Source: Escherichia phage EP-B-K_E2. Taken from it: 43,553 bases of DNA. Location: sequence record OR992644.1, one strand, 5' to 3'. The notes below the pieces were generated by a model that made no database searches, had not been told where the DNA came from, and was given only the letters and a program-made list of their open reading frames with translations. Below are positions 3,158 through 35,062 of the stretch, piece after piece (position 1 is the stretch's first letter; the number at the start of each line of letters is the position of its first letter). The position numbers and the translations under genes were made by a program.

Positions 3158-3445
3158 CTAACTATAATAGTTCGCTATTAGGTCGTCAACCTGTTTAAAC
3201 GAACCAACGACAAAAACATTTGCACCGCGTTTACGCATCCGCTCATGCTCACGTAACTGGTGCGGGTCAGGCTTCGTGTTTTCGTCTTTCTTAACCTCGA
3301 CGAACCAGACGATGCCGCCGGGGAGAATTACCAGCAGGTCAGGGGCGCCGGAGCGCCCCTCGTACGAAAGTTTACGAACGAGGCCGCCAATGGCCTCGAA
3401 TTGCTCTTTTGCGTATTTCTGTACGCGGCCCTCTTTAGTCGCCAT
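3158..3445 (-). CDS. VRR-NUC domain nuclease (PD-(D/E)XK)
   Basis: GAPDLLVILPGG...VEVK motif typical of VRR-NUC. Confidence 0.7.
   Translation of the reverse strand: MATKEGRVQKYAKEQFEAIGGLVRKLSYEGRSGAPDLLVILPGGIVWFVEVKKDENTKPDPHQLREHERMRKRGANVFVVGSFKQVDDLIANYYS
3161..3189 (-). promoter_or_regulatory. sigma70-like promoter TTGACG-N17-TATAGT with AATAG-N4-CTATT dyad
   Basis: Read on minus strand; same architecture as 7070-7098 and 9383-9411. Confidence 0.6.
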
Positions 3446-7069: not shown

Positions 7070-7098
7070 ACTATAATAGCTAACTATTCAGGTGTCAA
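7070..7098 (-). promoter_or_regulatory. sigma70-like promoter TTGACA-N17-TATAGT with AATAG-N4-CTATT dyad
   Basis: Read on minus strand upstream of 6376-7002. Confidence 0.6.
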
Positions 7099-9382: not shown

Positions 9383-9411
9383 ACTATAATAGCGAACTAT
9401 TCACATGTCAA
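9383..9411 (-). promoter_or_regulatory. sigma70-like promoter TTGACA-N17-TATAGT with AATAG-N4-CTATT dyad
   Basis: Read on minus strand; divergent from HTH gene at 9476. Confidence 0.6.
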
Positions 9412-9475
9412 TGGGCTTTTCTAAAATAATTAATATGGTACTATTCACATATCAACTAACTAAGGAGTAATTGAC

Positions 9476-12843: not shown

Positions 12844-12872
12844 TTGCACACCCCAACATAATAGGTTACTAT
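12844..12872 (+). promoter_or_regulatory. sigma70-like promoter TTGCAC-N17-TACTAT with AATAG-N4-CTATT dyad
   Basis: Nearly identical 35-bp element to 25844-25872 and 35034-35062 (opposite strand). Confidence 0.6.
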
Positions 12873-12907
12873 TCACTTATCGAAACGAGACAGAGGAGCG
12901 AGGGGTT

Positions 12908-13749: not shown

Positions 13750-13782
13750 TGTTCAATAGTTTGGGATTTTACTGAGTGACTT

Positions 13783-13820
13783 ACGCTGCTACACAGCAGC
13801 GTATCATTTTTCTCATTTTT
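13783..13820 (+). terminator. rho-independent terminator
   Basis: Stem acgctgct/agcagcgt, loop acac, followed by T-rich run. Confidence 0.55.
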
Positions 13821-13873: not shown

Positions 13874-14047
13874 ATGATTACTAAAGAACAGGCTGAACGA
13901 CTAATCGCGTTAATCGACACAATGATGGATGTAAAAACCGATTTAGCACCGGCAACAGAGGAATCCGCTACCTGGTCGCTTGAAGAAAGAGAAGCAGAAG
14001 CGGAACGGGGTTTACTGGCGTTCATCGATTCAATAACACACCAATAA
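13874..14047 (+). CDS. hypothetical small protein (57 aa, not in ORF track)
   Basis: SD aggaga 7 nt upstream of ATG. Confidence 0.35.
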   Translation: MITKEQAERLIALIDTMMDVKTDLAPATEESATWSLEEREAEAERGLLAFIDSITHQ

Positions 14048-14054
14048 AATTTAC

Positions 14055-14083
14055 TTGCACACTGGGATAGAATAGACTACTAT
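14055..14083 (+). promoter_or_regulatory. sigma70-like promoter TTGCAC-N17-TACTAT with AATAG-N4-CTATT dyad
   Basis: Upstream of 14114 gene. Confidence 0.6.
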
Positions 14084-14113
14084 TCATTTACACAGACGAT
14101 AGGAGAGACAGAG

Positions 14114-14332
14114 ATGTTCCTGGAATGCAAATCCTACGATGGTTACTGGGCGCTGGCTAAAAACGACCTGTACCACATCAAAGAAGACAGCGACGAGAGT
14201 CGATGCTACATAATAGACGACAACGGCACTGAACTTGACGTCTATTACACCGGGTATGGTCGATGGGCGTTATCCGCAGACGATGCCTTTGTGTTTGAAG
14301 AATATAACGGGGAGGAACCGGATGATGAGTAA
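14114..14332 (+). CDS. hypothetical acidic protein
   Basis: 72 aa, SD aggagag upstream. Confidence 0.5.
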   Translation: MFLECKSYDGYWALAKNDLYHIKEDSDESRCYIIDDNGTELDVYYTGYGRWALSADDAFVFEEYNGEEPDDE

Positions 14333-15035
14333 CAAAAACGAAGTATTCGAGTACCTGATTAACCAACTACGGCAGCAGTTACAAGTCGTAGATGTAATGG
14401 GTGAAATCGAACGGTGGAGTATTGACCGTAGTATTGCCGGACGAGGTAACTATACCGACGAGGAAAACGCCATAATTGATGCTTACATCGGCCTGGAGCA
14501 CAACCCGTACAAGCAACAGTGCGAAGACCTGGCGCGTGAGGTGCAGTCACTTAAGAATCAGTTACGTGATGCGTCGGCGCAGATTAAGGAGTTGCAGGAA
14601 GACAACATTGAGAAATCCAGGCACATATCACATCTGGCGGGGCAATCGTCGGCGTATTGCAATGACGCTTTTCGCCTTCAAGCGCAAGTTGATGACCTGG
14701 TAAAACGGCTGGCTAAGGCCACTGGTGACGAGTCTGCGCAGATTAAGGAGTTGACGCTCGCGCTAGATAGTTTAGATAACGAGGTTATGTGTCTTCGTTC
14801 GATCGTTGACCTGGACCCTAAAGGCGCGATTGGGTACATCCGGCGGGCAAATAGTGCAATGACTGACACCATGCGCCGCCAATACCTTAGCAAAGCACTT
14901 GAGGAACTCGGATGTAAGGATTCGCCAGAACAATCCGGTTGCCATAAAGATGACGTGCAGGAATGCAAGCACGATTGGTACTTTTACGATAAAGGTGCTT
15001 CGATGATGTGCAAGAAATGTGGGTTAAAGAAATGA
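14322..15035 (+). CDS. hypothetical coiled-coil protein with C-terminal Cys cluster
   Basis: Start moved to ATG with SD ggagg; internal repeat SAQIKEL x2; C-terminal CxxxxxxC...CxxC. Confidence 0.5.
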   Translation: MMSNKNEVFEYLINQLRQQLQVVDVMGEIERWSIDRSIAGRGNYTDEENAIIDAYIGLEHNPYKQQCEDLAREVQSLKNQLRDASAQIKELQEDNIEKSRHISHLAGQSSAYCNDAFRLQAQVDDLVKRLAKATGDESAQIKELTLALDSLDNEVMCLRSIVDLDPKGAIGYIRRANSAMTDTMRRQYLSKALEELGCKDSPEQSGCHKDDVQECKHDWYFYDKGASMMCKKCGLKK

Positions 15036-15235
15036 CCAGCATCTTATTTATATGGGTGCTGTCCGCAGGCCAGATGCAACTGACGGCATCAGAAACGTTT
15101 TACTCGATGGAGGCGTGCCAGTCAGCGGCACGCGCCGCGGAGAACGCGCACTTTCTGTTTCAGGGTGACAAGCCCAACGATTCAGAGGTACGCGCTATCT
15201 GCTCACCTAAGCGACTTGGCAAACAGGAGAAGTGA
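15032..15235 (+). CDS. small protein with N-terminal hydrophobic (signal-like) segment
   Basis: ATGA overlap; MTSILFIWVLSAGQ hydrophobic N-terminus. Confidence 0.4.
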   Translation: MTSILFIWVLSAGQMQLTASETFYSMEACQSAARAAENAHFLFQGDKPNDSEVRAICSPKRLGKQEK

Positions 15236-15237
15236 TT

Positions 15238-15378
15238 ATGGTGCAGAGATACGATTTAGTAGGGGATATGGGCGGTAACTGCAACCTGAATGAAGCGCGA
15301 ATGGAAAAATCTGATGACGGGATATATGTTTACTATCGCGAGCAAATTAATAACGCAGGCTTAAAGGTGAAGAAATGA
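15238..15378 (+). CDS. hypothetical small protein (46 aa, not in ORF track)
   Basis: SD aggaga upstream of ATG. Confidence 0.3.
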   Translation: MVQRYDLVGDMGGNCNLNEARMEKSDDGIYVYYREQINNAGLKVKK

Positions 15379-15459
15379 TTATCCAGTTAAACGACATTAT
15401 GAAAGCAGACATCATTCAGCTTGAAGATTACGGTATGCAACTCGCGGAGATTGAGGAAC

Positions 15460-15753
15460 ATGAGTCTCGCAACTGACATCCTGAAACGAAGCGGCCTTGC
15501 GCCGCTGTCGCCGAGAGTTAAAACACAGATATACAAGCGTCGGGGTAACGCGCTGTACCCAGAGATTCAGGCCAGGCGCAAAGCTATCCGCGCCTGTGGA
15601 TTCCAGAACGGGAAGGCCGTGAATCTCGGTGAGTTCAAGACAAAGGAACGTGCCGCTATTGCTAATCGGTTATTTAATTACTGGAAATCGCTGGGATACG
15701 ATGATATTCCGACGAAACCACAGAGACGACAATACATCTGGAGACATAAATAA
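15460..15753 (+). CDS. hypothetical basic protein
   Basis: ORF-track ORF 15421-15753 trimmed to first ATG. Confidence 0.45.
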   Translation: MSLATDILKRSGLAPLSPRVKTQIYKRRGNALYPEIQARRKAIRACGFQNGKAVNLGEFKTKERAAIANRLFNYWKSLGYDDIPTKPQRRQYIWRHK

Positions 15754-15783
15754 ACTGTTATTAGGATAATTCTTACCCGTGGT

Positions 15784-15823
15784 ATCCTCCAGTTACTGCA
15801 TACTTAATACGCACCTGGAGGAT
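15784..15823 (+). promoter_or_regulatory. RNA hairpin sequestering the holin Shine-Dalgarno
   Basis: Perfect 9-bp inverted repeat atcctccag / ctggaggat; right arm contains GGAGG 7 nt before TTG start at 15829. Confidence 0.5.
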
Positions 15824-15828
15824 TCACC

Positions 15829-16137
15829 TTGGATAAATTTACTGAAACAGTGACAGGCTGGCTTCTGGCCGCCGCACTAGCCGGCGGGGTCATCGGGCTA
15901 CGACAACATAAGTCCGTTATTTCTGGCCCCATCGACGGCTTCTGCTTTATCGCAACTGGCTTTACTTGCGCCGTATTTGGTGCACCTCTCGCAGCGCAAT
16001 GGTTCGGCATTACTGGGGAGCGTGAAATTGCTGGCCTGGGATTCATCATTGCCATTCTCTGGATGCCTATCTATTCCCGCCTCTCCGGTATCGTCGCCGG
16101 AGAATACATCTCACGTCGAGGAGGCCCGGATGAATGA
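15829..16137 (+). CDS. putative holin (three predicted TM segments, TTG start)
   Basis: Three hydrophobic segments, charged C-terminus, directly upstream of endolysin. Confidence 0.55.
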   Translation: MDKFTETVTGWLLAAALAGGVIGLRQHKSVISGPIDGFCFIATGFTCAVFGAPLAAQWFGITGEREIAGLGFIIAILWMPIYSRLSGIVAGEYISRRGGPDE

Positions 16138-16402
16138 GCTATTCTGGTTCGGCGGTATGCTGGCAATCGGGGGCACATCGCTGTTTAACGTGTACCATCC
16201 CAGTGTGGATGACGGATTATTCGGGCGTGTACTCTATATCCTGACTGCTATTGTCTGCGCTGCCGGGTGTATCCACCTGTTACAAGGCAGCATGTCACCA
16301 ACGCTGCCTGAGACATTAATCACATTAGTTGCGCTGCGTCAGATTCGTCAGGCGTGGCTGTCATACGGAGGACATAAGCGTGTCTCGAAATATTTCAGAT
16401 AA
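16130..16402 (+). CDS. small membrane protein (second holin or antiholin-like)
   Basis: 90 aa, two hydrophobic segments, overlaps holin and endolysin. Confidence 0.4.
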   Translation: MNELFWFGGMLAIGGTSLFNVYHPSVDDGLFGRVLYILTAIVCAAGCIHLLQGSMSPTLPETLITLVALRQIRQAWLSYGGHKRVSKYFR

Positions 16403-16868
16403 TGGGTTGCATTTTACTGCTGCGTTTGAGGGATTCCGCGGAACTGCGTATCGCGCGACACCGAATGAGAAGTACCTGACTATAGGCTACGGTCACTACG
16501 GGCCAGACGTAACACCAGGTAAGACCATCACACCGGGACAGGGCCTCCTGTTACTGAATCGTGATATGGCTAAGGCCGTAGCTGCGGTTGATGCAGCAGC
16601 ACACCATTCACTGACACAGGCACAGTTCGACGCTGTGTGTGACCTGGTCTATAACGCAGGTGCGGGCGTGATTTCGGCTACTATCGGAACCGGTAAGGCG
16701 CTGCGTTCTGGCGATATTGCGACGCTGCGTGCCAAGCTGGCGCTGTTCATCAACCAGAACGGCAAACCGTTACTTGGCCTGCGCCGCCGTACCGCAGGTC
16801 GTCTGGCGCTGTTCGATGGTAAACCGTGGCAGGAGGCGGAGGCTATCGGGCGCGCGGTGAAAGGTTGA
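16380..16868 (+). CDS. endolysin, phage lysozyme (GH24-like)
   Basis: GLHFTAAFEGFRGTAYRATPNEKYLTIGYGH lysozyme signature; GTG start with SD ggagg. Confidence 0.75.
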   Translation: MSRNISDNGLHFTAAFEGFRGTAYRATPNEKYLTIGYGHYGPDVTPGKTITPGQGLLLLNRDMAKAVAAVDAAAHHSLTQAQFDAVCDLVYNAGAGVISATIGTGKALRSGDIATLRAKLALFINQNGKPLLGLRRRTAGRLALFDGKPWQEAEAIGRAVKG

Positions 16869-16934
16869 CACCTGATACCAATCCGACGATACTTAAATCA
16901 CCTCCTGTTCCATCCCTCTACTCTCCAGTTTTAT

Positions 16935-16964
16935 CCCGGCCCTGACCCAGCCGGGATTTTTTTT
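16935..16964 (+). terminator. rho-independent terminator after lysis genes
   Basis: cccggc-cctgaccca-gccggg stem followed by 8 T. Confidence 0.7.
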
Positions 16965-16986
16965 ATCTATTTTCTGCAATGACTAG

Positions 16987-17015
16987 TTGACTATTATCTA
17001 TGACCCTATTATATT
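16987..17015 (+). promoter_or_regulatory. sigma70-like promoter TTGACT-N17-TATATT
   Basis: Upstream of small-gene block beginning 17049; contains CTATT repeats. Confidence 0.55.
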
Positions 17016-25808: not shown

Positions 25809-25843
25809 TTCTAAATTCCTTATCTCTCGTTTCGATGTAATGA

Positions 25844-25872
25844 ATAGTACCCTATTATGCTGGTGTGTGCAA
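25844..25872 (-). promoter_or_regulatory. sigma70-like promoter TTGCAC-N17-TACTAT with dyad (minus strand)
   Basis: Near-identical to 12844-12872 element. Confidence 0.6.
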
Positions 25873-26910: not shown

Positions 26911-26932
26911 CCTATAATAGCACCCTATTATA
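26911..26932. promoter_or_regulatory. AATAG-N4-CTATT dyad element with TATAAT/TATTAT boxes (strand ambiguous)
   Basis: ctataatagcaccctattatat matches the dyad family at 25844 and 35034. Confidence 0.45.
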
Positions 26933-35003: not shown

Positions 35004-35033
35004 TTTAAACCCCTTCATTGTTGGTGTAAGTGA

Positions 35034-35062
35034 ATAGTACCCTATTATATTGGGGTACGCAA
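35034..35062 (-). promoter_or_regulatory. sigma70-like promoter TTGCGT-N17-TACTAT with dyad (minus strand)
   Basis: Near-identical to 12844-12872 and 25844-25872 elements. Confidence 0.6.

What the first reader, a model, noticed from the sequence alone, without database searches (positions are those of the whole stretch)
15784..15831. Hairpin occluding the ribosome-binding site of a TTG-initiated holin
A perfect 9-bp inverted repeat (atcctccag at 15784-15792, ctggaggat at 15815-15823, 22-nt loop) places the GGAGG Shine-Dalgarno of the putative holin inside the 3' arm, and the holin begins with the weak start codon TTG at 15829. A weak start plus a sequestered SD is a known way to throttle holin translation and set lysis timing. 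The left arm (CCTCC) is an anti-SD-like sequence.
Basis: seen in the sequence. Interest (0 to 1): 0.55.

Follow-up and report, generated by a model that had tools for sequence, protein, structure and literature searches.

The report
Hairpin hiding a phage holin's ribosome site
A conserved RNA hairpin buries the ribosome-binding site of the first lysis gene of a K1G-like coliphage, and it probably silences transcripts that read in from upstream genes, much as phage T4 does for its lysozyme, so it is a new example of a known trick.

Summary
The arms ATCCTCCAG (15784-15792) and CTGGAGGAT (15815-15823) form a perfect 9-bp hairpin. GGAGG (15817-15821) lies in the 3' arm, 7 nt before TTG 15829, the start of the first gene of a holin-holin-endolysin cassette in a Kagunavirus genome.

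A 9-bp inverted repeat alone is not significant, since about 5 are expected per shuffled window. The context is. This is the most occluded of 68 Shine-Dalgarno (SD)-led starts. 15783-15854 has no common polymorphism in 62 haplotypes. Arm substitutions are mostly wobble-compatible.

Homologous holins in Dhillonvirus and KW1E-like phages carry different hairpins at the same place. Those hairpins are canonical intrinsic terminators, again with the SD-like run in the 3' arm.

In every lineage a -10 box abuts or overlaps the 5' arm: TGnTATCCT here, TGATATAGT in Dhillonvirus, TTGACC-17-TACTAT in KW1E. Predicted starts therefore leave 0-3 nt of that arm.

Best reading (about 0.5): the hairpin silences, and in sister genera terminates, read-through from the upstream operon, while the cassette's own transcripts lack the 5' arm. 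This resembles T4 gene e.

No transcript data exist, and within-genus covariation is not significant. This is a known kind of regulation in a new setting.

The parts
15780..15788 (+). Extended -10-like promoter box TGGTATCCT (TG-n-TATCCT), overlapping the 5' arm. The predicted +1 is near A15795.
   Evidence: TG, T15783 and ATCCT are invariant in 62 haplotypes, while the 'n' position 15782 is G in 35 and C in 27. The box is kept in the 68%-identity lineage L060 (ATGGTATCCT). The equivalent boxes are TGATATAGT in Dhillonvirus and TTGACC-17-TACTAT in KW1E. This is inferred, not mapped.
15784..15792 (+). 5' arm of the hairpin, AUCCUCCAG (anti-SD mimic CCUCC).
   Evidence: The variants are A15791G (G.U) and, in L060, C15790U plus A15791G (U.G and G.U).
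15793..15814 (+). 22-nt A/U-rich loop. If the promoter is real, this is also the 5' end of the cassette's own transcript.
   Evidence: Nearly invariant within Kagunavirus. It is replaced in L060 by a 15-nt sequence that extends the stem, and altered in the L026 and L030 types so that the stem grows to 10 and 13-14 bp.
15815..15823 (+). 3' arm CUGGAGGAU, containing the Shine-Dalgarno GGAGG (15817-15821).
   Evidence: P(paired) is about 1.0 for every SD base.
15829..16137 (+). First lysis gene: 102 aa, TTG start, three predicted transmembrane segments (holin or antiholin).
   Evidence: phrog_2359 'holin', E = 3.5e-29. Annotated in relatives. Homologues.
15783..15854 (+). Nucleotide-level conserved core: the -10 box, the hairpin, the SD, the start codon and the first 8 codons.
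   Evidence: No common polymorphism in 62 haplotypes. Nucleotide diversity (pi) is 0-0.003, against 0.06-0.2 in the flanking coding sequence.
16130..16402 (+). Second small membrane protein: 90 aa, ATG start, own GGAGG at 16120-16124. It overlaps the first gene by 8 nt.
   Evidence: phrog_2508 'holin', E = 3.8e-34; sequence.
16380..16868 (+). Endolysin: 162 aa, GTG start, GGAGG at 16367-16371.
   Evidence: PF00959 Phage_lysozyme, E = 3.8e-26; phrog_7.
16933..16964 (+). Intrinsic terminator that closes the lysis cassette: ATCCCGGC, 9-nt loop, GCCGGGAT, then T7.
   Evidence: Read. The same element is listed as terminator T21 in the fBC-Eco01 supplement.
15460..15753 (+). Last gene of the upstream operon (97 aa, phrog_9632, function unknown). 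Its transcripts would read into the hairpin.
   Evidence: The scan lists no terminator between it and the holin.

Best explanation
The hairpin is a real cis-acting mRNA structure that acts as an insulator at the 5' border of the lysis cassette.

Transcripts that read in from the upstream operon (13874-15753) contain both arms. They fold, bury GGAGG, and cannot initiate translation at TTG 15829. In the sister lineages, the same hairpin followed by a U-tract also terminates such transcripts.

The cassette's own promoter is a weak extended -10 box, TG-n-TATCCT, whose hexamer is part of the DNA that encodes the 5' arm. It starts transcription near A15795. Those mRNAs lack the 5' arm and have an open SD. 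Their output is limited only by promoter strength and the weak TTG codon.

Holin dosage, and hence lysis timing, would then depend on the cassette's own promoter and start codon rather than on upstream transcription. This is the logic of T4 gene e, soc, 49 and I-TevI.

Shown in silico: the hairpin, SD occlusion, conservation, and the promoter-box geometry in all lineages examined (four kinds of hairpin). Inferred: promoter activity, the transcription start site, the existence of read-through, and the effect on translation.
For: Hairpin and occlusion: rank 1 of 68; P(unpaired) of the SD is 0.001 with the 5' arm and about 0.3 for transcripts starting at 15793-15797.

Selection: searches show the conserved core 15783-15854.

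An RNA-level rather than DNA-level constraint: the 5'-arm changes are transitions that give G.U or U.G only in the + strand RNA. Loop changes lengthen the stem in the L026 and L030 types and in L060.

Cross-lineage evidence: HK578/Dhillonvirus, L117 and KW1E_UTAR holin homologues (32-48% identity) have different stems at the same position. The SD-like GGGA, GGGG or GGGGA is fully paired, and the 3' arm ends 5-8 nt before ATG. Relative to the window, KW1E changes both sides of three pairs (U-A to C-G, C-G to G-C, G-C to A-U). Dhillonvirus removes 2 nt from both arms. These comparisons were read from the sequences.

Promoter: TG and T15783 lie outside the helix yet are invariant, whereas the 'n' at 15782 is polymorphic at 27 of 62. 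The scanning tool places TTGACC-17-TACTAT ending at base 676 and the terminator hairpin starting at base 677 in KW1E. The predicted +1 leaves 0-3 nt of the 5' arm in every lineage.

Context: no terminator is found between the upstream operon and the holin in the window, and a strong terminator follows the endolysin.

Precedent: in T4 gene e, early read-through transcripts sequester the RBS and lysozyme synthesis falls about 100-fold, while late promoters located in the 5' strand of the structure give translatable mRNA (PMC3014915).
Against: There is no transcript-start or expression data for any of these phages. Two genome papers predicted neither a promoter nor a terminator in this spacer.

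TATCCT matches the -10 consensus at only 4 of 6 positions, and the -35 region is poor (ATTAGG or TATTAG). The tool's own promoter scan does not call it. Five of its six bases are dictated anyway by pairing with AGGAU, so only TG and T15783 are independent evidence.

A sigma-70-type promoter gives no obvious temporal control, unlike T4 late promoters.

The hairpin silences only the first gene. The second membrane protein and the endolysin have their own GGAGG and could still be made from read-through RNA.

Within Kagunavirus the formal covariation test is uninformative: 7 of 9 pairs never vary, no pair changes on both sides, and the shuffles do as well. One metagenomic haplotype has T15816C, which gives an A.C mismatch.

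The cross-genus 'compensations' assume positional homology of the arms.
Confidence: 0.5

Rival explanations
1. Standing translational throttle. All holin mRNA contains the hairpin, either because it starts upstream (for example at the GATAAT -10-like box 15765-15770) or because it is read-through only. Rare opening of the stem, perhaps helped by 30S standby binding on the 22-nt A/U-rich loop, combines with the weak TTG to keep holin synthesis low and delay lysis.
For: The hairpin, SD occlusion and TTG start are confirmed. The tool lists GAGACA-18-GATAAT at 15741-15770, which would place the whole hairpin at the 5' end of the mRNA. The lambda S gene uses an upstream stem-loop to control ribosome access to its SD, and altering S translation signals shifts lysis time (bioRxiv 10.1101/2025.05.14.654169). 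The loop is nearly invariant within the genus, as expected if it has a role in the RNA.
Against: Opening costs about 14-18 kcal/mol, which predicts near-complete silencing rather than tuning. The GATAAT box and its -35 are not conserved: the -35 is absent where the upstream gene is HslV-like, the box is GATACC in L060, and it is absent in Dhillonvirus and KW1E. This model does not explain the conserved TG-n-T outside the stem. In Dhillonvirus and KW1E the hairpin plus U-tract would terminate such transcripts before the gene.
Confidence: 0.25
2. The hairpin is mainly a transcription terminator or attenuator that separates the upstream operon from the lysis cassette. The SD lies in the 3' arm only because the spacer is short. 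In Kagunavirus the element has decayed (large loop, interrupted U-tract), and any effect on translation is incidental.
For: The homologous elements in HK578, L117 and KW1E meet the tool's terminator criteria: 8-12 bp stem, 6-7 nt loop, T5-T8 tail. L060 has a 12-bp stem, a 9-nt loop and a UUUAUUUU tail. Most Kagunavirus relatives have 5 T in the 8 nt after the stem (TTCATCTT).
Against: In the window the loop is 22 nt and the tail is TTCACCTT, and the scan does not call a terminator. The stem is nevertheless under the strongest nucleotide conservation of the region. A decaying terminator would not keep a perfect anti-SD:SD duplex in 61 of 62 haplotypes. Termination alone does not explain why the 3' arm always ends 5-8 nt before the start codon and always carries the purine run.
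Confidence: 0.12
3. The inverted repeat is a DNA-level operator bound by a dimeric regulator, not an RNA structure.
For: It is a perfect palindromic pair of arms next to a putative promoter. The genome uses another palindromic motif repeatedly.
Against: Arm spacing varies among lineages: 22, 15, 14 and 6-7 nt. Arm sequences differ between genera while staying complementary. The 5'-arm substitutions C to T and A to G preserve pairing only as RNA wobble on the + strand and break the DNA palindrome. The recurrent motif AATAGTNNNCTATTAT is not present here.
Confidence: 0.04
4. Chance inverted repeat with no function.
For: About 5 such 9-bp repeats are expected per shuffled window.
Against: This is the most occluded SD of 68. 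It lies in the most conserved stretch of the locus. An equivalent hairpin is kept at the same place in all the holin-homologue lineages examined except Pectobacterium phage Wc4-1.
Confidence: 0.03

Closest known systems
Phage T4 gene e (lysozyme), soc, 49 and I-TevI: an RBS-sequestering hairpin in read-through transcripts, with a promoter inside the DNA that encodes the 5' strand (McPheeters et al. 1986, as reviewed in PMC3014915)
   Same: It concerns a lysis gene. The SD and start region are buried in a helix in long transcripts. A promoter element lies in or next to the 5' strand, so that its transcripts lack that strand and are translatable. The purpose is to prevent untimely lysis-gene expression from upstream transcription.
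   Different: T4 uses gp55-dependent late promoters (TATAAATA), which supply the timing. Here the boxes look like host sigma-70 extended -10 or -35/-10 promoters with no known temporal control. The gated gene is a holin-type membrane protein, not the endolysin. In the sister lineages the hairpin is also an intrinsic terminator. Nothing has been shown experimentally here.
Lambda S gene sdi upstream stem-loop and dual-start motif (summarised in bioRxiv 10.1101/2025.05.14.654169)
   Same: A stem-loop just 5' of a holin gene controls ribosome access to its SD. Holin translation efficiency sets lysis time.
   Different: The lambda structure apportions initiation between two start codons (Met1 for the antiholin, Met3 for the holin). 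Here there is a single start. The in-frame GTG at codon 8 has no SD, adds no basic residue, and is GTA in 2 of 62 haplotypes. The stem here is much more stable and covers the whole SD.
Rho-independent (intrinsic) terminators that overlap the next gene's RBS
   Same: In HK578, L117 and KW1E the element meets terminator criteria. The L060 form is close to doing so.
   Different: The window's version has a 22-nt loop and a broken U-tract, and the scan does not call it.
SD:anti-SD RNA thermometers (ROSE, fourU)
   Same: The SD is paired to an upstream anti-SD-like strand.
   Different: Thermometers rely on weak, mismatched helices that melt near 37-42 C. This is a perfect 9-bp helix with 6 G-C pairs, at -14.2 kcal/mol.

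Membership tests
cis-acting SD-sequestering mRNA hairpin | The SD (and/or start codon) is base-paired within a local helix. | tested here: met
   GGAGG 15817-15821 lies in the 3' arm, with P(paired) about 1.0.
cis-acting SD-sequestering mRNA hairpin | The structure is more stable or more occluding than background. | tested here: met
   z = -3.77. It is the least accessible SD of 68 candidate starts. The bare 9-bp repeat, however, is not rarer than chance.
cis-acting SD-sequestering mRNA hairpin | Pairing is maintained in evolution (covariation). | tested here: inconclusive
   Within Kagunavirus, 7 of 9 pairs are invariant, 2 vary by wobble, there is 1 mismatch cell, and the score is no better than the shuffles. 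Between lineages the stems differ but always pair and always hold the SD; homology of individual pairs is assumed.
cis-acting SD-sequestering mRNA hairpin | It reduces translation in vivo or in vitro. | not testable with these tools
   This needs reporter fusions or toeprinting.
T4 gene e-type transcript-origin gating | A promoter lies in or next to the DNA for the 5' strand, so its transcripts lack that strand. | tested here: inconclusive
   -10-like boxes abut or overlap the 5' arm in every lineage examined, and the predicted +1 leaves 0-3 arm bases. No transcription start site data exist.
T4 gene e-type transcript-origin gating | Longer upstream-initiated transcripts extend through the structure. 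| tested here: inconclusive
   The upstream genes are on the same strand, and the scan lists no terminator between 13803 and 15829 in the window. Transcripts were not observed.
T4 gene e-type transcript-origin gating | The internal promoter is temporally late. | not testable with these tools
   The boxes resemble sigma-70 promoters. No T4-type late motif is present and no regulator is known.
lambda S-type sdi / dual-start holin control | Two in-frame start codons separated by a basic residue, giving a holin and an antiholin. | tested here: not met
   There is a single TTG. GTG at codon 8 lacks an SD, is not kept in 2 of 62 haplotypes, and has no counterpart in the Dhillonvirus homologues.
intrinsic terminator | A G+C-rich stem, a short loop (3-8 nt) and a U-tract immediately 3'. 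| tested here: not met
   In the window the loop is 22 nt and the tail is UUCACCUU, and it is not listed by the scan. The criteria are met in HK578 and KW1E.
holin (first lysis-cassette gene) | A small membrane protein encoded next to the endolysin, with similarity to annotated holins. | tested here: met
   phrog_2359 'holin', E = 3.5e-29; it is adjacent to phrog_2508 and to a PF00959 endolysin. No Pfam family matches. Hole-forming activity and the holin versus antiholin role are untested.

The most novel reading that the evidence does not exclude
The 72-nt invariant block (15783-15854: 5' arm, 22-nt loop, SD, TTG and the first 8 codons with no synonymous change) may be more than a passive insulator. 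It could be the docking site of a trans-acting factor, either a phage protein or a host RNA-binding protein such as CsrA acting on the GGA-rich 3' arm. That factor would open or lock the hairpin at a set time, giving a regulated RNA switch that works as the lysis clock of Kagunavirus and related siphophages.
Probability: 0.1. Interest if true: 0.7.

Novelty: new member of a known kind. Interest (0 to 1): 0.4.

Why it matters
Kagunavirus and Dhillonvirus phages are being characterised and collected for therapy against E. coli, and their lysis timing is unstudied. If the model is right, one short element of about 50 nt (promoter box, 5' arm, 3' arm with the SD, TTG) uncouples holin dosage from upstream transcription. 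It is also an easy handle for changing latent period or burst size.

The finding would show the T4 gene e logic recurring in unrelated siphophages that use host-type promoters. It would also show the same hairpin serving as both terminator and RBS mask. The idea can be tested directly with transcription start mapping and a few reporter fusions. It does not change the general understanding of lysis control.

Tried and rejected
- Rfam scan of 15500-16200 at permissive E-value: only a noise hit (STnc500, E = 2.3, minus strand).
- Trans-acting antisense partner: nothing longer than chance-level 9-mers is complementary to 15778-15835 anywhere in the window.
- Dual-start (lambda-like) motif: rejected.
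- RNA thermometer: rejected on stability.
- The recurrent palindrome AATAGTNNNCTATTAT, called 'phage promoters' by PHIRE in PMC9825357: it is enriched in the window but not present at this site.
- TGNTATCCTCCAG elsewhere in the window: no meaningful second copy.
- Within-genus covariation statistics: uninformative because the element hardly varies.
- Looking for more divergent lineages: the word-indexed protein search returned only 18 close relatives. The IMG/VR and metagenome scans returned the same four lineages.
- Pectobacterium phage Wc4-1 homologue (35% identity): it has no SD-containing hairpin, so the architecture is not universal in the protein family.
- Two Kagunavirus genome papers: they contain no promoter or terminator call in this spacer and no transcript data.

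Full report
WHAT THE WINDOW IS

The 1.5 kb around the finding matches 170 phage records at up to 92% identity. Nearly all are Kagunavirus, the K1G-like siphophages of Guernseyvirinae. The locus is a lysis cassette with three genes:
- a 102-aa membrane protein starting at TTG 15829 (phrog_2359 'holin');
- a 90-aa membrane protein starting at ATG 16130 (phrog_2508 'holin');
- an endolysin starting at GTG 16380 (PF00959).

GenBank relatives annotate the same three genes and the same TTG start with GGAGG as its RBS. A strong terminator at 16933-16964 closes the cassette. The upstream genes from 13874 to 15753 lie on the same strand, and the scan finds no terminator before the holin.

THE OBSERVATION

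The arms are 15784-15792 and 15815-15823, 9/9 complementary, with a 22-nt loop. GGAGG at 15817-15821 lies inside the 3' arm, 7 nt before TTG.

The isolated hairpin is -14.2 kcal/mol. The local fold is -21.5 kcal/mol with z = -3.77. With the 5' arm present the SD is unpaired with probability 0.001, and opening the initiation region costs about 18 kcal/mol.

A perfect 9-bp inverted repeat is not rare in itself, since about 5 are expected per shuffled window. Placement is what matters: among 68 SD-led ORF starts in the window, this SD is the least accessible.

CONSERVATION

I collected the locus from IMG/VR, metagenomes, GenBank phages and Logan/ENA assemblies. This gave 62 distinct 600-nt Kagunavirus haplotypes.

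Common polymorphisms occur at 15756-58, 15764, 15776 and 15782. After that there are none until 15855. Nucleotide diversity (pi) is 0-0.003 across 15789-15848, against 0.06-0.2 in the flanking coding sequence. The block is the same whether the upstream gene is phrog_9632, as here, or an HslV-like peptidase.

Arm variants are few. A15791G gives G.U. The 68%-identity lineage L060 has C15790U and A15791G, giving U.G and G.U. One contig has T15816C, an A.C mismatch. Loop changes in the L026 and L030 types and in L060 lengthen the stem to 10-14 bp.

The formal pair count within the genus is uninformative: 7 of 9 pairs never vary, and the shuffles do as well. The wobble-only changes favour an RNA structure on the + strand over a DNA palindrome.

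SISTER LINEAGES

Holin homologues at 32-48% identity occur in Dhillonvirus (HK578, Gluttony, SO-1), in a Dhillon-like contig (L117) and in phage KW1E_UTAR. Each starts with ATG at the aligned codon, and each has a different hairpin at the same place:
- HK578: AGTCCCAGTGAG-CTAAAA-CTTACTGGGACT followed by T5, then ATG;
- KW1E: TCCCCGGA-CTAACAC-TTCGGGGA followed by T8, then ATG.

The scanning tool calls both of them intrinsic terminators. In each, the purine run that serves as SD (GGGA, GGGG or GGGGA) is fully paired, and the 3' arm ends 5-8 nt before the start codon. If the positions are homologous, KW1E differs from the window on both sides of three pairs, and Dhillonvirus has lost 2 nt from both arms.

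A Pectobacterium phage homologue (35% identity) lacks the arrangement.

THE PROMOTER CLUE

In every lineage a -10-type box sits immediately 5' of the 5' arm or overlaps it:
- TG-n-TATCCT at 15780-15788 here and in L060;
- TGATATAGT in Dhillonvirus and L117;
- TTGACC-17-TACTAT in KW1E, ending one base before the hairpin.

In Kagunavirus, TG and T15783 lie outside the helix yet are invariant. The 'n' between them is the one common polymorphism, G in 35 haplotypes and C in 27. A start 7 nt after the box falls at A15795 here. It leaves 0-3 nt of the 5' arm in every lineage.

RNAs that start at 15793-15797 cannot form the hairpin, and their SD accessibility rises about 300-fold, from 0.001 to about 0.3.

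From my own knowledge, extended -10 promoters such as galP1 (TGCTATGGT) work with a poor -35 and a non-consensus hexamer of this kind.

Caveats: five of the six hexamer bases are also fixed by pairing with AGGAU, the -35 is poor, and the tool's strict scan does not call this promoter.

MECHANISM PROPOSED

Read-through RNA from the upstream operon folds and is translationally silent for the first lysis gene. In the sister lineages it is also terminated. RNA from the cassette's own weak promoter lacks the 5' arm and is translated from an open GGAGG and a weak TTG.

This is the logic documented for T4 gene e, where early read-through transcripts sequester the RBS and lysozyme synthesis falls about 100-fold. 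There, late promoters lying in the 5' strand of the structure give translatable mRNA (PMC3014915). I put this reading at about 0.5.

It remains possible at about 0.25 if the real transcription start is upstream, for example at the GATAAT box (15765-15770) listed. That box is not conserved across lineages, and a helix of 14-18 kcal/mol should almost abolish initiation rather than tune it.

A mainly terminator role (about 0.12) fits the sister lineages but not the window's 22-nt loop and broken U-tract. A DNA operator and a chance repeat are both unlikely.

WEAK POINTS

- There are no transcript data.
- A sigma-70-like promoter provides no obvious timing.
- The second membrane protein and the endolysin have their own GGAGG and would escape the block.
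- It is not known which small protein is the holin and which the antiholin.

COMPARISON AND VERDICT

The element works like an SD-sequestering leader hairpin and most resembles the T4 gene e arrangement. It is not a lambda-type dual-start system (tested, not met). In this window it is not a canonical terminator or a thermometer either.

I found no description of it in the two Kagunavirus genome papers that discuss promoters and terminators.

It is a real, conserved regulatory feature of a known kind in a new group of phages. Interest is moderate, and it is readily testable.

Noticed in passing
window 3164-3181, 7073-7088, 9386-9401, 9430-9445, 12858-12873, 14069-14084, 16982-16997, 25843-25858, 26914-26931, 35033-35048: The palindromic motif AATAGTNNNCTATTAT recurs 14 times at up to 3 mismatches, against 2.9 expected; 0 of 100 shuffles reach 14. 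It matches the consensus that PHIRE reported as 'phage promoters' in Kagunavirus fBC-Eco01 (PMC9825357). It is probably a -10-containing operator or promoter family used across the genome. The copy at 16982-16997 overlaps the promoter-like TTGACT-17-TATATT.
   Followed up: partly
window 16865-17015: Right after the endolysin stop there are two near-consensus sigma-70 promoter-like sites: TTGACA-17-GATACT at 16865-16893 and TTGACT-17-TATATT at 16987-17015. They flank the strong terminator at 16933-16964. The lysis cassette is therefore a discrete unit between two transcription boundaries.
   Followed up: partly
window about 15752-15756; relatives L007, L009, L011, L042: This is a mosaic junction. 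Relatives carry either the phrog_9632 gene or an HslV-like peptidase gene upstream, and the two types rejoin the common sequence at 'AAAC'. In the HslV type, the upstream gene's stop codon is the TAA inside the conserved GATAAT, only 13 nt before the 5' arm. A terminating ribosome might then touch the hairpin in those phages.
   Followed up: partly
window 15829-15854: The first 8 codons of the holin show almost no synonymous variation in 62 haplotypes. A small hairpin (UUACUG-AAA-CAGUGA, 15839-15853) is predicted there, and TTACTG is repeated at 15793 and 15839. The small hairpin is broken in L060, so its significance is unclear.
   Followed up: partly
window 16120-16137 and 16367-16402: All three lysis genes have GGAGG Shine-Dalgarno sequences but three different start codons (TTG, ATG, GTG). 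The genes overlap, by 8 nt and by 23 nt, which suggests possible translational coupling within the cassette.
   Followed up: no
window 15773 and 15827: This genome differs from 61 of 62 haplotypes at two sites: T15773, which breaks a TAGGA-TAAT-TCCTA palindrome found in many (not all) relatives, and C15827. With C15827, a short transcript can pair GAGG with CCUU around the start codon, which slightly lowers SD accessibility.
   Followed up: no
window 13782-13803: A strong terminator-like hairpin (TACGCTGCT-ACAC-AGCAGCGTA, then a T-rich tail) marks the 5' boundary of the operon that reads towards the holin.
   Followed up: no
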